This document shows, piece by piece, positions 9,690 to 14,908 of a DNA stretch of 64,000 nucleotides (position 1 is the first letter of the stretch; every line of letters begins with the position of its first letter). The position numbers were made by a program, and so were the translations under genes. The notes under the pieces are model-generated. The model was not told where the DNA came from, did no database searches, and saw nothing but the letters and a program-made list of their open reading frames with translations. Source of the stretch: Escherichia coli (lineage in GTDB: Bacteria > Pseudomonadota > Gammaproteobacteria > Enterobacterales > Enterobacteriaceae); NCBI RefSeq assembly GCF_050920415.1, contig NZ_CP169309.1. The stretch is one strand, 5' to 3'.

Positions 9690-9943
9690 ACAACCAGACA
9701 ATGACTTTTACCCCTGAACAATTACGCAAACAGGCGCAGGAAATGCTGCGACAGGCGGAACAACTGGAAAAATCAGGCGTAACAAAAGATGCCATTCGTC
9801 GGGATATGGTACCCGCGCTCAGAGAACTGATGCAGGCAAAACACCGCGCACAAAAAGCGGTGGATGAGCTGGTGGATTGTGTGGCAGAGCTGGAAACAAA
9901 AGTTGGAAAATTTGAAAAACTGGTGCAGGAGGTACTGCGCTGA
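9686..9943 (+). CDS. Hypothetical coiled-coil protein
   Basis: ORF packed between the helicase and the Q-like gene. Start is uncertain (TTG 9686 or ATG 9701). Confidence 0.45.
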
Positions 9944-10308
9944 TGCGTGATATTCAGATGGTTCTTGAGCGTTGGGGGGCGTGGGTGGCAAATAACCACG
10001 AAGATGTTACCTGGTCGTCGATTGCTGCGGGATTCAAAGGACTGATTCCGTCAAAGGTTAAGTCACGTCCGCAATGTTGTGACGATGACGCGATGATCAT
10101 TTGTGGTTGCATGGCTCGTCTGAAAAAGAACAACCGTGACTTGCATGATCTGCTCGTGGATTATTACGTTGGGGGAATGACTTTTATGGCGCTTGCAAGG
10201 AAACATGGACGTTCAGATTGCTGGGTTGGTCGTTTGTTGCAAAAAGCAGAGGGGATCGTGGCTGGTATGTTAATGATGTTGGATGTCAAACTAGAGATGG
10301 AATATTAA
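9943..10308 (+). CDS. Late-gene antiterminator, Q-like (small Phage_antitermQ type)
   Basis: Last gene of the early-right operon. RWGAWV....W and [10 protein letters not shown] resemble the ~120-aa antitermination protein Q family (from memory). Confidence 0.55.
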
Positions 10309-10475
10309 TTTAATTCTCATAGAATTCTTTTCTTTATGAGGGGCGAATAATGCCCCTAAACTAGAATATTATAGCTGCCTCATTATCTGGGCAGCATTAG
10401 GTTGTTGAGTGGTTTTCGCTATTAAAGCAATCATTCAAAAGGTATAAAATATGAAGCTGGGTTCTATATTAACGC

Positions 10476-11663
10476 TTACTCCATGCTAAGTGAATCCTGA
10501 TAGCGCTTAAATGCCTCCGCGAAAGCTAGAGCAGCATCAGCATTTGATACCATGTATTCTTCTGTAATGCCTGTTTGGGACTGGAAATATAACTTTCCAT
10601 AAATGCAAATTGGGATTTGATAGTTATCTTTAAATCGTCGGTCTGGTGAGCCATCTTTATTTGTTTTTGCCCATGTATGCCCAGCTATGCTGGCATCACT
10701 CGGAACACCATCCTCTTCATGGAACCCTTGATGCTGCGCATTAATTTGTAATTCCCGTAAGTCAATCAGAGCAAATGCCCCATCGGGGCGAGGAATTACA
10801 GCAATACCCGGATAAAGCAATATATCGTCGCCATTGACATTTTCAAATCGCATTGCTCTTCCAGTAAAACGAATTAGATCTGTTGAAGCGAAATCAAATA
10901 CGACTGGATGACGATCAACTGCTCGTGTAGCTAACGTCCTTTCTGCAAACTGATCTATAGCTTTATCTGCGGTAATATCCCATTTTTTGATACTTGATTT
11001 TAAAATATCGAAAGCACGAATCATTGCTGCATAAGCCCGCTGTGAGGAATCGCTGGTTTCGAAATTAATGACGATTTTAGTGTTATCTTCCCAGGATACA
11101 AGACGAGATACTTCTGCTTGTATTTGTGGTAGCGTTGCTTCAAGTTCTGCAATGCGACGTTTATAAAACCATCGAAACAGGCTTGATTTACGTCGAGCCA
11201 ATTCACTCTTTTGTCTTGATTCTTCTGCAAGAGCCTCTTGTAAGTCAGATGCTATTTCCGCTCTTTGTTCTCGTGCTTTAACGATCAAGTCTCGTAAAGG
11301 TAAAAGAGATGTACTTGTCAAGGCCTCTACTGAGGCACTGGAGATTTCATTCATGCCTGTTTGTGGCATGTACATTTTTGCGTTTGATGGGGTGTTGTCT
11401 GAAATTAACTCGGGTGCATCAATATGAGATTCTACAGACGACGGATTTAGCTGAATGGTTGTGGATGGTTTGTCTTTGTATGGTAAACGAGGGGATGTAT
11501 ACGATAAACCAGATCCTGGTAACCCTAGAGTTGCTTTAATTCCTTTTTGGTTAACATTAACTGTGGCTCCGGGGACACCAAAACTTGCGCTTACCCCATG
11601 TTTACCGATGTTAAGGCGTACTCCGGGGAAAATGGTAAAAGTTTGTCTGAAGCGAAGAGACAT
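10476..11663 (-). CDS. DUF4236-like protein (395 aa), function unknown; reverse-oriented moron
   Basis: N-terminus: RFRQTFTIFPGVRLNIGKHGVSASFGVPGATVNVNQKGIKATLGLPGSGLSY (DUF4236 signature, from memory). Then a P/S linker, a coiled coil and an unknown C-terminal domain. AT-rich. Confidence 0.75.
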   Translation of the reverse strand: MSLRFRQTFTIFPGVRLNIGKHGVSASFGVPGATVNVNQKGIKATLGLPGSGLSYTSPRLPYKDKPSTTIQLNPSSVESHIDAPELISDNTPSNAKMYMPQTGMNEISSASVEALTSTSLLPLRDLIVKAREQRAEIASDLQEALAEESRQKSELARRKSSLFRWFYKRRIAELEATLPQIQAEVSRLVSWEDNTKIVINFETSDSSQRAYAAMIRAFDILKSSIKKWDITADKAIDQFAERTLATRAVDRHPVVFDFASTDLIRFTGRAMRFENVNGDDILLYPGIAVIPRPDGAFALIDLRELQINAQHQGFHEEDGVPSDASIAGHTWAKTNKDGSPDRRFKDNYQIPICIYGKLYFQSQTGITEEYMVSNADAALAFAEAFKRYQDSLSME

Positions 11664-11693
11664 AAGATAATCCCTGTGTAGTAATGTCTAAAG

Positions 11694-11716
11694 TTACATT
11701 CCATACTGGAATGTAA
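11694..11716. promoter_or_regulatory. Perfect palindrome just upstream of the DUF4236-like gene
   Basis: TTACATTCCA-tac-TGGAATGTAA, 31 nt upstream of the ATG at 11663. Could be an operator or a 5'-UTR hairpin. Confidence 0.5.
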
Positions 11717-11797
11717 TACTGCGATGAGACACGAGGCTCATTAAGGATTTTGGCATTTTGCTGACATAAATTCTATAAAAATTATGGTGATAAACGT

Positions 11798-11825
11798 TTT
11801 ACAATCGTAAAAAAACAAATATGCT
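11798..11825 (+). promoter_or_regulatory. Candidate late promoter (PR'-like)
   Basis: TTTACA (11798-11803), 16 nt, TATGCT (11820-11825). A strong terminator follows about 30 nt downstream. Confidence 0.3.
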
Positions 11826-11856
11826 GTTAAGAGTGGTACTACGCCACACAGCTTAA

Positions 11857-11880
11857 ACCCGCCGATGAGCGGGTTTTTTT
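11857..11880 (+). terminator. Intrinsic terminator (tR'-like)
   Basis: ACCCGC-cgatga-GCGGGT followed by T7. Confidence 0.7.
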
Positions 11881-11886
11881 GTGCAC

Positions 11887-11911
11887 AGAAAACCCCCAGC
11901 TAGGCTGGGGG
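11887..11911 (-). terminator. Intrinsic terminator, minus strand
   Basis: CCCCCAGC-cta-GCTGGGGG followed by TTTTCT on the minus strand. Back to back with the plus-strand terminator. Confidence 0.5.
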
Positions 11912-12037
11912 TTCCGGAAAGCTTTCAGCTTTGAGCCAGTTATTAAAACCCCTTTTGATTTGTTAAAACACCTTGCGGTCTGGCAACTTCTTAACTCACT
12001 TATTGTTTCCACCCATGTTTTTGGATACCTGCTGTAG

Positions 12038-12074
12038 CTGTCAGATTAGCGCGATAATCTGACAGCTTTTTTTT
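12038..12074 (+). terminator. Intrinsic terminator
   Basis: CTGTCAGATTA-gcgcga-TAATCTGACAG followed by C and T8. Confidence 0.75.
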
Positions 12075-12362
12075 ACAACGAATCCTTCTGATCTGCTTTT
12101 GCGGGGCTTTTTTGTATCCGCTCCATGCCCGGCGTATAAGCGGAGGTTGGTCAGTTTTCTAAAAATTGAAATACCTCACAATTCAGCCAGTTAATGGTTG
12201 TTTGTCTGGCGAAGAGTTTGTAAATAAAAAAACGCATGGTGAATCCCCCTAAGCGGCGGGGCGAATCAGCAGTCAGTTCTGGGATAATCGCGGGTTCGTA
12301 TGCTGATGCCGGACTCACCGGGAGGCACCCGGCACCATGCATCATGGTCATCCCCTTGTATG

Positions 12363-12389
12363 ATACCCCTCTCCGGAGGGGTATTTTTT
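12363..12389 (+). terminator. Intrinsic terminator
   Basis: ATACCCCTC-tccg-GAGGGGTAT followed by T6. Confidence 0.75.
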
Positions 12390-12393
12390 GGAT

Positions 12394-12776: not shown

Positions 12777-12822
12777 CTGATTGCGTGTGTTGTCTTCATA
12801 CATGACTGGTAAAGGTGATTCA

Positions 12823-12853
12823 GGCCATCAGAGTTTTGCTGATGGCCTTTTTT
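12823..12853 (+). terminator. Intrinsic terminator immediately upstream of the holin
   Basis: GGCCATCAG-agttttg-CTGATGGCC followed by T6. Confidence 0.7.
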
Positions 12854-12886
12854 CTTTCCGGTAGCACAGGTCTGTCGGGGCGGGAT

Positions 12887-13106: not shown

Positions 13107-13457
13107 ATGGTCCAAAACTATGAAATGATTGTGAAAGGGATCCGCAATTTTGAGAATAAAGTTACGGTAACTTTAGCATTACAGGACAAAGAACGCTTTG
13201 ACGGTGAAATTTTTGACCTGGACATCTCGCTGGACCGTGTTGAAGGTGCCGCGCTGGAGTTTTATGAGGCAGTAGCCAGAAGGAGCATCAGACAGGTCTT
13301 CCTGGATGTTGCTGCCGGGTTATGTGAAGGGGATGAGCAGTCGCCGGAAAAGCGCCCCGTAATTTTAGAGGCGCAGAATGTGTGGATAACCTACAAAGGA
13401 AAGCTACCAGGAAGAATTACTGGTTCTCTGAAGACTCCTCCGGAATCACAACCTTAA
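13107..13457 (+). CDS. Hypothetical 116-aa protein inserted between holin and endolysin
   Basis: GAGGAG SD upstream. No recognisable domain. Confidence 0.55.
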   Translation: MVQNYEMIVKGIRNFENKVTVTLALQDKERFDGEIFDLDISLDRVEGAALEFYEAVARRSIRQVFLDVAAGLCEGDEQSPEKRPVILEAQNVWITYKGKLPGRITGSLKTPPESQP

Positions 13458-14557: not shown

Positions 14558-14908
14558 ATGCCATCACGAATCCCACGCGCCTGCCGTAAGCGTGGATGTG
14601 CAGGTACAACCACAGACAGTTCTGGTTACTGCGATAAACATCGTGGCGAAGGATGGGTACAGCATCAACGCGGACTGAGCCGCCACCAGCGTGGCTATGG
14701 CTCGAAATGGGATGCCATACGTGCGCGCATACTGAAGCGTGATAATCATCTGTGTCAGAACTGCCTGCGCAATGGGAGAGCCGTTGAAGCCAGAACTGTG
14801 GACCACATCATTCCGAAAGCTCATGGTGGCACGGATGCAGACAGTAACCTGCAGAGTCTGTGCTGGCCCTGTCATAAAGCAAAAACAGCGCGCGAACGCA
14901 TCAATTGA
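14558..14908 (+). CDS. HNH endonuclease (terminase-associated)
   Basis: CQNC...VDHIIPKAHGGTDADSNLQSLCWPCHKAKT. Located just upstream of the terminase, as in HK97-like cos phages. Confidence 0.85.
   Translation: MPSRIPRACRKRGCAGTTTDSSGYCDKHRGEGWVQHQRGLSRHQRGYGSKWDAIRARILKRDNHLCQNCLRNGRAVEARTVDHIIPKAHGGTDADSNLQSLCWPCHKAKTARERIN

What the first reader, a model, noticed from the sequence alone, without database searches (positions are those of the whole stretch)
10309..11800. Reverse-oriented DUF4236-like gene between Q and the late leader is a candidate single-gene exclusion/defence moron
A 395-aa ORF (10476..11663, minus strand) occupies the Q-to-lysis cargo slot. Lambdoid phages carry lysogen-expressed cargo there, such as stx, nmpC and tRNAs. 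The gene is antisense to the surrounding late/early-right transcription and visibly more AT-rich than its neighbours.

The protein has a DUF4236-type N-terminus (RFRQTFTIFPGVRLNIGKHGVSASFGVPGATVNV...GLPGSGLSY), a Pro/Ser linker, a coiled coil and a ~200-aa C-terminal domain I cannot place.

A perfect 10+10 palindrome, TTACATTCCA-tac-TGGAATGTAA (11694-11716), sits 31 nt upstream of the start codon. It suggests dedicated regulation. The gene is bracketed downstream by hairpins (10335-10355 and 10373-10402) and upstream by a minus-strand terminator (11887-11911), so it is transcriptionally insulated.
Basis: partly seen in the sequence, partly recalled or inferred. Interest (0 to 1): 0.6.

Follow-up and report, generated by a model that had tools for sequence, protein, structure and literature searches.

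The report
Uncharacterised DUF4236 prophage cargo gene
A real, well-conserved gene of unknown function sits backwards between a prophage's late-gene switch (Q) and its lysis genes; it moves between viruses, conjugative elements and defence islands as a one-gene cassette, which makes it a reasonable but unproven candidate for a new anti-virus gene.

Summary
The 395-aa minus-strand ORF (10476-11663) is real. It has an N-terminal DUF4236 module, a disordered linker, a long helical hairpin and a roughly 200-aa beta-rich C-terminal domain. That domain modelled at pLDDT 96 but has no Pfam model and no solved structural relative.

The gene lies between a QuuD-type Q gene and a conserved promoter-terminator element. 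This interval is variable: other prophages hold an ORF6N gene there, and K-12 DLP12 holds reverse-oriented nmpC. The gene is AT-rich, under strong purifying selection (dN/dS about 0.1) and rare (12 of 5426 E. coli genomes; a second allele in 123).

About 130-200 bp of upstream DNA plus the ORF recur in unrelated contexts. These include prophage ends, the lambda P-nin slot, ICE cargo regions and integrase islands. Neighbours there include Gabija, Kiwa with type I R-M, Hachiman, AbiL, a PifA-like protein and a CBASS-type effector.

PADLOC does not recognise the protein, and no effector domain or experiment exists. Longer relatives add a TM helix plus SH3b or PG-binding domains, which points to the inner face of the envelope.

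The palindrome is real but specific to this lineage. One "insulating" hairpin belongs to an IS200-derived repeat.

Verdict: a good candidate for single-gene defence or exclusion cargo, with function unproven.

The parts
10476..11663 (-). CDS, 395 aa. It comprises DUF4236 (residues 3-56), a variable linker (about 58-90), a near-invariant segment (90-122), a helical hairpin (123-194) and a beta-rich C-terminal domain (195-395).
   Evidence: ORF. Pfam and PHROG phrog_17982 at E = 3e-172. Homologue alignment A1. AF2 models. dN/dS of 0.06-0.20.
11664..11792 (-). The cassette's own 5' region (leader plus candidate promoter). It is found only in genomes that carry the gene.
   Evidence: This stretch matches only the 12 carriers. 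Blocks of it are shared with the upstream regions of homologues in Yersinia, Serratia, Citrobacter, Pectobacterium, Klebsiella and Enterobacter.
11747..11755 (-). Candidate extended -10 element (TGcCAAAAT). This is an inference, not a mapped promoter.
   Evidence: TG-n(1-2)-AAAA is invariant in all nine aligned upstream regions (A4). The generic sigma-70 scan called no minus-strand promoter here.
11694..11716 (.). Perfect 10+10 palindrome TTACATTCCA-tac-TGGAATGTAA. It would lie in the 5' leader if the candidate -10 is right.
   Evidence: It folds as a 10-bp hairpin, although the leader overall is not exceptional (z = -1.6). It is lineage-specific, being degraded in O158 and absent elsewhere.
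11671..11675 (-). Shine-Dalgarno AGGGA, 7 nt before the ATG, within the conserved block ATTACTAYACAGGGATTAYYTTATG.
   Evidence: Read from the sequence. The block is conserved in all nine upstream regions.
10309..10475 (.). Interval between the Q stop and the cargo stop. It holds two short hairpins (about 10339-10357 and 10374-10395) and is specific to this context, so it is not part of the mobile unit.
   Evidence: Sequence. Not called as terminators. Not conserved downstream of homologues in other contexts, and the second hairpin is degraded in O158.
9943..10308 (+). QuuD-type antiterminator Q gene, convergent with the cargo gene.
   Evidence: PF06530, E = 1.9e-51. About 82-83% DNA identity to quuD of DLP12. 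The same Q-then-DUF4236 arrangement occurs in Edwardsiella tarda.
11798..11883 (+). Conserved promoter-like element (TTTACA-N16-TATGCT), a short leader and a terminator hairpin (11855-11876) with a T-run. This is the candidate late promoter/tR' and marks the right border of the variable slot.
   Evidence: Scan. Conserved in both carriers and non-carriers, with sequence changes in the terminator stem that appear to keep the hairpin (read by eye from A3). Shared with about 130 genomes.

Best explanation
**What it is**
The ORF is an intact gene maintained by selection. It forms a self-contained one-gene mobile cassette of about 130-200 bp of its own upstream DNA plus the ORF. Here the cassette occupies the variable interval between a QuuD-type Q gene and the conserved late promoter/terminator element of an E. 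coli lambdoid prophage, and it is convergent with Q.

**The protein**
It is soluble and cytoplasmic, with no signal peptide and no TM helix. It has a basic, glycine-rich DUF4236 beta module, a linker, a 55-70-residue antiparallel helical hairpin and a new beta-rich C-terminal domain. That domain carries an invariant polar loop (W331, N335, G338, D341, R343, N347).

**Most likely role (about 45%)**
It is a single-gene phage-exclusion or defence factor expressed in the lysogen.

**Proposed mechanism (inferred, about 25-30% for this specific version)**
- The protein acts at the cytoplasmic face of the inner membrane. Longer paralogues tether the same core there through a TM helix plus SH3b or PG-binding domains.
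- The C-terminal domain binds a conserved cellular or infection-associated cue.
- The hairpin and the invariant segment 90-122 mediate assembly.
- The DUF4236 module executes exclusion or abortive infection at the membrane.

**Shown versus inferred**
Shown: gene, architecture, mobility, selection and neighbourhoods. Inferred: expression in lysogens, site of action, sensing and the effector step.
For: **Slot**
- The interval is variable. Non-carriers hold an ORF6N gene and DLP12 holds reverse-oriented nmpC.
- The Q-adjacent arrangement recurs in Edwardsiella.

**Rarity and composition**
- The gene is in 12 of 5426 genomes, and a second allele is in 123 of 5426.
- The gene has a lower GC than its locus in 11 of the 12 loci compared; in Yersinia the two are equal.

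**Cassette mobility**
- The upstream region is shared across contexts, and homology ends at the stop codon.

**Cargo positions**
- Prophage end next to tail fibres and Lom.
- By my count from the table, about 25 of 38 IMG/VR hits lie within about 3 kb of a contig end.
- The lambda P-nin slot.
- ICE cargo.
- Integrase islands.

**Defence neighbours confirmed with PADLOC or Pfam**
- GajA/GajB at 1282 and 1015 bits.
- Type I R-M, McrA-like HNH, Mrr and KwaA/KwaB.
- HamA/HamB.
- AbiLi.
- PifA-like KAP NTPase, E = 2e-70.
- A 2TM CBASS-type effector with mCpol.
- PDC-S31 candidate next to the common E. coli allele.

**Other points**
- No conserved partner gene appears across contexts, so it is a single-gene unit.
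- Purifying selection: dN/dS of 0.06-0.10 between Enterobacterales genera and 0.20 against the close O158 copy.
- Long paralogues have the same core followed by one TM helix and SH3_3 or PG_binding_1.
Against: - PADLOC 2.0 gives no hit to the protein at E <= 1.
- Neither the PDB sequence search nor the fold searches found an enzymatic or pore-forming effector fold.
- The protein has no hypervariable sensor region. It is unusually conserved for a defence gene: 62-64% identity between Enterobacterales and Rhodobacterales.
- Many alphaproteobacterial copies are lone genes among housekeeping genes.
- A 35%-identical full-length relative sits directly after terL on the late strand of two Microcystis phages.
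- The short form has no TM helix, so membrane action is only an extrapolation from paralogues.
- No promoter was called by the generic scan.
- I found no expression data or phenotype data in the searchable literature.
- I ran no background control for how often random genes have defence neighbours.
Confidence: 0.45

Rival explanations
1. It is a lysogenic-conversion factor unrelated to phage defence. In this reading it is a cytoplasmic scaffold or adaptor that modifies a conserved envelope, cell-wall or stress pathway of the host. That would be a fitness or virulence moron in the manner of bor, lom or nmpC.
For: - Conservation is very high with no variable sensing region, which fits a conserved host partner.
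- Paralogues are anchored by a TM helix plus SH3b, PG_binding_1 or PDZ domains.
- The common allele sits beside lom and tail-fibre genes, where classic conversion morons lie.
- The same Q-S slot holds the porin nmpC in DLP12.
- Copies in Rhodobacterales and Gibbsiella lie among housekeeping genes.
Against: - The gene is repeatedly adjacent to bona fide defence systems on ICEs and islands.
- It is present in only about 2.5% of E. coli genomes.
- No link to any known envelope pathway was found.
Confidence: 0.25
2. It is a phage-benefit gene that acts in the prophage's own life cycle. It could damp Q or late transcription by convergent transcription into Q (as lambda paQ does), or it could serve as an accessory late or assembly function.
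For: - The gene is convergent with Q in both E. coli and Edwardsiella.
- The Microcystis phage relative lies right after terL on the late strand.
- The DUF4236-only gene of phiCD111 sits inside the tail module.
Against: - Most copies are nowhere near a Q gene, or are not in phages at all. They occur at prophage ends, on ICEs, in islands and at chromosomal sites.
- In Enterobacter the gene is co-directional with the early genes.
- No full-length copy was found in any deposited coliphage.
Confidence: 0.1
3. It is selfish or neutral cargo that hitch-hikes because it is locked between Q and Q's cognate promoter. On this reading it has no benefit to the cell, or it acts as an anti-defence gene for the mobile element.
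For: - Q and the conserved leader element travel together with the cassette behind two different early regions.
- ArdC anti-restriction is nearby in Brenneria.
- Truncated and IS-interrupted copies exist.
Against: - dN/dS is about 0.1 with dS above 1 across genera, so function has been maintained for a long time.
- The cassette persists in many contexts without Q.
- It carries its own conserved upstream region.
Confidence: 0.1

Closest known systems
nmpC in the DLP12 prophage (and stx or tRNA cargo of Stx phages): cargo in the Q-to-S interval of lambdoid prophages
   Same: It occupies the same interval after a homologous QuuD-type Q gene and before the holin. It is reverse-oriented with respect to late transcription, and its presence varies among related prophages.
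   Different: nmpC is an outer-membrane porin with a known fold. This protein is cytoplasmic, has no known function, and also moves to many non-prophage contexts.
Single-gene prophage or plasmid exclusion factors (PifA of F; BstA; PADLOC single-gene candidates such as PDC-S31)
   Same: It is a one-gene unit with its own upstream region. It is carried in mobile-element cargo slots and found next to such systems, including a PifA-like protein, a BstA_C gene and PDC-S31.
   Different: There is no sequence match to any PADLOC model. It has no NTPase, nuclease, TIR or TM effector domain, and no phenotype is known.
Pfam DUF4236 (PF14020) proteins and PHROG phrog_17982
   Same: The N-terminal 55 residues match PF14020 across the full model length. 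The whole protein matches phrog_17982 end to end.
   Different: Both families are annotated 'unknown function'. PF14020 covers only 14% of the protein. The helical hairpin and the C-terminal domain match no Pfam model at E <= 0.01, although the C-terminal domain (residues 181-395) has about 2,900 clusters at 50% identity.
PH-like beta-sandwich domains (for example the GRK2 and Sin1 PH domains)
   Same: The last 120-140 residues form several antiparallel strands capped by a C-terminal helix. They give recurring weak Foldseek hits to PH domains, with probability up to 0.72-0.75.
   Different: No hit reaches E <= 0.001, TM-scores are at most 0.4 even when normalised to the target, and no Pfam bPH family matches. 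This is a resemblance only.

Membership tests
Pfam DUF4236 (PF14020) | Match to the 55-residue profile above the gathering score of 27 bits | tested here: met
   70.2 bits, E = 2e-19, residues 3-56 against model positions 1-55.
PHROG phrog_17982 (unknown function) | Full-length match to the family profile | tested here: met
   E = 3.4e-172, residues 1-393 against profile positions 1-382 of 390.
Known or candidate anti-phage defence systems (PADLOC-DB 2.0) | Match of the protein to any of the 5027 defence-protein models | tested here: not met
   0 families at E <= 1. Models newer than 2023, such as current DefenseFinder, were not available.
Defence genes by guilt-by-association | Homologues enriched next to known defence systems compared with background | tested here: inconclusive
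   Known systems lie within about 6 kb in at least six or seven independent contexts. They are Gabija, Kiwa with R-M, Hachiman, AbiL, a PifA-like protein, a 2TM effector and PDC-S31. About 25 contexts were sampled in total. No background control was run, and many loci are housekeeping.
Phage 'moron' (Hendrix/Juhala sense) | Present or absent between otherwise related prophages at a fixed junction | tested here: met
   The same Q-to-leader junction holds this gene in 12 genomes and an ORF6N gene in others.
Phage 'moron' (Hendrix/Juhala sense) | Base composition different from that of the neighbours | tested here: met
   GC of 0.42 against 0.50-0.55, and GC3 of 0.30.
Phage 'moron' (Hendrix/Juhala sense) | Own promoter and terminator; expressed from the repressed prophage | tested here: inconclusive
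   A conserved upstream region with an invariant TGn-AAAA(T) block suggests an extended -10, but the scan called no sigma-70 promoter. The downstream hairpins are weak and not conserved. Expression cannot be tested with these tools.
Membrane superinfection-exclusion proteins (Sie/Imm/Cor type) | Signal peptide, lipobox or transmembrane helix | tested here: not met
   Alignment A1 shows no hydrophobic 19-mer in the window protein's close homologues, and I saw none in the window protein's own sequence; the window protein was not itself in the hydropathy scan. In that scan, only the 500-730-aa paralogues have a TM helix at about residue 410-460.
PH-like domain superfold | Significant structural match to PH or bPH domains | tested here: inconclusive
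Membrane-fusion (HlyD/MacA) adaptor proteins | Alpha-hairpin inserted in a lipoyl domain, plus beta-barrel domains and Pfam HlyD models | tested here: not met

The most novel reading that the evidence does not exclude
The gene is the short, soluble form of a large and so far unnamed protein family, with about 2,900 clusters at 50% identity. On this reading the family's new C-terminal fold and DUF4236 module form a previously unrecognised single-protein immunity mechanism that works at the cytoplasmic face of the envelope. The long forms would be tethered to peptidoglycan through a TM helix plus SH3b or PG-binding domains. DUF4236 would then be a reusable N-terminal module shared by many phage and bacterial conflict proteins.
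Probability: 0.25. Interest if true: 0.7.

Novelty: new member of a known kind. Interest (0 to 1): 0.45.

Why it matters
If the gene excludes phages, it would add a widespread single-gene immunity family. The family is found in Enterobacterales prophages including an ST131 strain, on ICEs, and in Alphaproteobacteria. It has an unrecognised fold, no obvious enzymatic effector, and a probable link to the cell envelope.

It would also give a first function to DUF4236, a module found at the N-terminus of many phage proteins of unknown function.

Independently of function, the locus shows that the interval between Q and its cognate late promoter is a cargo slot whose contents are carried along whenever the Q-promoter pair recombines.

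If the gene has no phage phenotype, it remains one more conserved prophage moron of unknown role.

Tried and rejected
**Fold and sequence identification**
- Four attempts failed to identify the fold:
  - a profile search of PDB sequences, where the best hit was a spidroin at E = 0.42;
  - Foldseek against PDB with the full-length model;
  - Foldseek against PDB with the pLDDT-96 model;
- AFDB50 was not available.
- NCBIfam gave nothing meaningful.

**Searches that returned nothing useful**
- A search with the DUF4236 module alone returned only fragments, so domain partners could not be listed that way.
- 'DUF4236' appears in one paper only, and only in passing. Searches by accession and family id found nothing relevant.

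**Ideas rejected**
- Palindrome as an operator shared with the prophage immunity region: the half-site does not recur in the window.
- Conserved RNA structure in the leader: the consensus energy is only -8.3 kcal/mol with little covariation, and the window's leader gives z = -1.6.
- tRNA cargo in this Q-S interval: none found.
- An obligate partner gene: no neighbour recurs across contexts.
- BrxL near the gene in L024: the hit is an ordinary Lon protease.

**Left unfinished**
- LmuA and ThsB hits among the neighbours of the 14 unannotated loci were not assigned to a locus.
Full report

Yes, in its main points.
- A 395-aa ORF runs from 11663 to 10476 on the minus strand.
- Its first 56 residues match Pfam DUF4236 over the full model (70 bits, E = 2e-19).
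- The whole protein matches PHROG phrog_17982, annotated 'unknown function', end to end (E = 3e-172).
- Upstream on the plus strand lie a DnaB-type helicase and a PF06530 antiterminator Q (9943-10308).
- Downstream lie a P21-type holin, a DUF1327 gene, a lysozyme and Rz.
- GC falls to 0.37-0.43 across about 10150-12250, against 0.47-0.55 on either side. The gene has GC 0.418 and GC3 0.30, against 0.504 for the window.
- The perfect 10+10 palindrome at 11694-11716 is present. Such palindromes are over-represented in the window: 8 loci against about 0.6 expected.

**2. Where exactly does it sit?**

- DNA comparison with complete E. coli genomes shows that the block from Q to about 11882 is shared at 99% with 11 genomes and at 93-94% with one more.
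- In those genomes the block follows two different early regions, one ending in helicase-Q and one in RusA-Q.
- From about 11793 onwards, a different and much more widespread homology begins.
- The overlap is an element conserved in both carriers and non-carriers: TTTACA-N16-TATGCT, a short leader, and a GC-rich hairpin with a T-run (11855-11883). Across genomes its stem varies in sequence but appears to keep the hairpin, by eye from the alignment.
- I read this element as the late promoter/tR'-type leader. That is an inference, because no Q-binding or pause element was verified.
- In non-carriers, the interval between Q and this element holds a plus-strand ORF6N-domain gene.
- In K-12 DLP12, the homologous quuD is followed by the reverse-oriented porin nmpC.

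**3. The regulatory details hold up less well.**

*Palindrome*
- It is perfect in the window and in strain 08-00022, whose copy was read directly. The ten other copies are 99.9% identical over this stretch.
- It is degraded in the O158 copy and absent from every homologue elsewhere.
- The alignment suggests it arose where a deletion joined two conserved leader blocks.
- Its half-site occurs nowhere else in the window beyond chance.

*Upstream region*
- What is conserved in all nine upstream regions compared is a TG-n(1-2)-AAAA(T) block and the Shine-Dalgarno-proximal sequence ATTACTAYACAGGGATTAYYTTATG.
- The TG block is a candidate extended -10 at window 11755-11747 on the minus strand.
- The generic promoter scan called nothing there.
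- The leader has no convincing conserved RNA fold.

*Hairpins*
- The two hairpins after the stop codon have 6-bp stems and were not called as terminators. They are not conserved outside this lineage.
- The hairpin at 11891-11913 lies in a 105-bp dispersed repeat with up to 35 copies per genome.
- That repeat matches the IS200 art200/STnc490 family (PMC4513863, listed). It is missing from the other carriers, so it is not part of the cassette.

**4. The protein**

- AlphaFold2 with 44 homologues gave:
  - six short strands for DUF4236 (pLDDT 50-69);
  - disorder over residues 63-120;
  - a helical hairpin at 123-194;
  - a C-terminal domain.
- A second model of residues 121-395, built with 70 diverse relatives, reached pLDDT 95.7 and pTM 0.87.
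- The C-terminal domain has one helix, about eleven strands and a terminal helix.
- Weak recurring hits to PH domains are a resemblance only.
- No Pfam model covers residues 57-395. Even so, an exhaustive search with residues 181-395 found 2,946 clusters at 50% identity.
- Invariant residues across the diverse alignment are W228, R242, W331, N335, G338, D341, R343, N347, G365 and S373.
- Residues 90-122 are nearly invariant yet modelled as disordered. This suggests a binding or assembly segment.
- I saw no hydrophobic helix in the window protein's sequence, and its close homologues show none.
- The 500-730-aa relatives have one TM helix directly after the core.
- After that helix come bacterial SH3 or PG_binding_1 domains: 35 and 5 respectively of the 105 relatives scanned.
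- In those relatives the core is therefore cytoplasmic and tethered to the membrane and cell wall.

**5. Distribution and mobility**

- Full-length homologues are 78-82% identical in Serratia, Yersinia, Klebsiella, Pectobacterium, Brenneria and Enterobacter, and 62-64% identical in Rhodobacterales.
- More distant copies occur in Sphingomonas, Chlorobiota and Rhizomicrobium.
- dN/dS against other Enterobacterales genera is 0.06-0.10 with dS above 1. It is 0.20 against the close O158 copy.
- The gene has a lower GC than its locus in 11 of the 12 loci compared, and an equal GC in Yersinia.
- Homology between contexts covers the ORF and 130-200 bp upstream, and it stops at the stop codon. No neighbouring gene recurs. 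The unit is a one-gene cassette.

Contexts found:

| Host | Position |
|---|---|
| E. coli, Edwardsiella tarda | Q-adjacent, convergent with Q |
| Klebsiella, Pseudenterobacter | Prophage end beside tail fibres |
| E. coli second allele (123 of 5426 genomes, including an O25b:H4 strain) | Prophage end beside tail fibres and Lom |
| Enterobacter | lambda P-nin slot |
| Serratia, Brenneria | ICE cargo |
| Yersinia, Pectobacterium | Integrase islands |
| Roseomonas (long form) | Plasmid accessory region |
| Paracoccus, Phaeobacter, Gibbsiella | Lone gene among housekeeping genes |

- By my count from the IMG/VR table, about 25 of 38 full-length hits lie within about 3 kb of a contig end.
- Among 50,697 deposited phage genomes, only two Microcystis phages carry a full-length relative (35% identity, directly after terL). 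All other hits match the DUF4236 module alone.
- Those DUF4236-only genes also look like inserted morons.

**6. Evidence bearing on defence**

The protein itself matches no PADLOC model. Its neighbours often do:
- GajA/GajB directly adjacent in Serratia;
- type I R-M, an McrA-like HNH protein, Mrr and KwaA/KwaB in Yersinia;
- HamA/HamB 1.2 kb away in Tabrizicola;
- AbiLi about 1 kb away in an alphaproteobacterial MAG;
- a PifA-like KAP NTPase in Pectobacterium;
- an mCpol and 2TM-effector pair plus ThiF/JAB in Brenneria;
- the PADLOC candidate PDC-S31 next to the common E. coli allele.

That makes six or seven of roughly 25 sampled contexts. This is suggestive, but I ran no background control. 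The housekeeping contexts and the cyanophage copy do not fit neatly.

**7. Interpretation**

- I rate a lysogen-expressed single-gene exclusion or defence factor as the most likely role, at about 0.45.
- The more specific idea is that it acts at the inner face of the envelope, extrapolated from the anchored paralogues. In that idea the C-terminal domain is the sensor and DUF4236 is the executing or targeting module. I put this at 0.25-0.3, and it is inference throughout.
- The main rival is a non-defence conversion factor that engages a conserved host envelope or stress partner (0.25). The unusual conservation and the lack of any variable region favour it.
- A role in the prophage's own cycle, for example through convergent transcription into Q, is unlikely to be the primary one. 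Most copies are far from any Q gene (0.1).
- Purely selfish cargo is disfavoured by long-term purifying selection (0.1).

**8. Novelty and verdict**

- The slot and the moron-like behaviour are textbook. The gene family is uncharacterised in the searchable literature, where 'DUF4236' has one incidental mention.
- I classify it as a new member of a known kind: prophage and mobile-element cargo, possibly defence.
- It is a sound candidate for a phage-challenge experiment. It is not a surprise to a specialist, and its function remains unproven.
- Interest: 0.45.

Noticed in passing
window 11884-12005: A 105-bp dispersed repeat is inserted just after the leader terminator. It has up to 35 copies per genome and occurs in 2508 of 5426 E. 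coli genomes, on chromosomes and plasmids. It matches Rfam STnc490, the IS200 art200 sRNA family, at 72 bits. No IS200 transposase gene accompanies it here.
   Followed up: partly
window 12205-12393 (+): A strong Rfam match to the prophage sRNA STnc100 (114.5 bits, full length) lies in the Q-S interval, with a terminator at 12362-12385. A 2026 preprint relates this family to PasD.
   Followed up: partly
window 12815-12860: A 10-bp hairpin with a T-run (12822-12848) lies inside the 5' end of the longest holin ORF. The Pfam holin match starts at residue 29, so the true start is probably downstream and the hairpin is a last terminator before S. A sub-threshold SgrS-like Rfam hit also overlaps this region.
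   Followed up: no
L056 2401-2988 and L057 2422-2988 (E. coli strains 2D and RM13745): In prophages that lack the DUF4236 gene, the same Q-to-leader interval holds a plus-strand ORF6N-domain gene. This is another swappable cargo gene at the identical junction.
   Followed up: partly
L063 10463-11203; L066 7664-8005: The commoner E. coli DUF4236 allele sits at a prophage end by tRNA-Pro. It is followed by a DUF2971 protein that matches the PADLOC candidate single-gene system PDC-S31 (E = 7e-18). That neighbour is truncated in the O25b:H4 strain.
   Followed up: partly
L114 3501-4142 (phage phiCD111); L115 3501-3818 (Klebsiella phage RCIP0034): Small proteins consisting of the DUF4236 module plus short unrelated tails also look like inserted morons. 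One lies between the tail chaperone and tape-measure genes. The other is a lone gene on the opposite strand within a gene block.
   Followed up: no
L065 6067-7140 (Microcystis phage Mea-Yong924-1): A full-length relative at 35% identity is encoded directly after the large terminase gene on the same strand. It is the only kind of full-length copy found in deposited phage genomes, and it does not fit a purely lysogen-expressed role.
   Followed up: no
window 13107-13457 (+): A DUF1327/YdfR-family gene of unknown function is wedged between the holin and the lysozyme.
   Followed up: no
window 14558-14908 (+): A 116-aa ORF with an HNH-type motif, seen by eye only, lies between Rz and the small terminase subunit. 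This is the usual HNH-terminase pairing. It was not scanned.
   Followed up: no
P0131 (relative from the representative search): One family member carries a HlyD/CusB barrel-sandwich domain after the core. Others carry HIRAN or MarR domains. These are rare fusions of unknown meaning and could be gene-calling artefacts.
   Followed up: no
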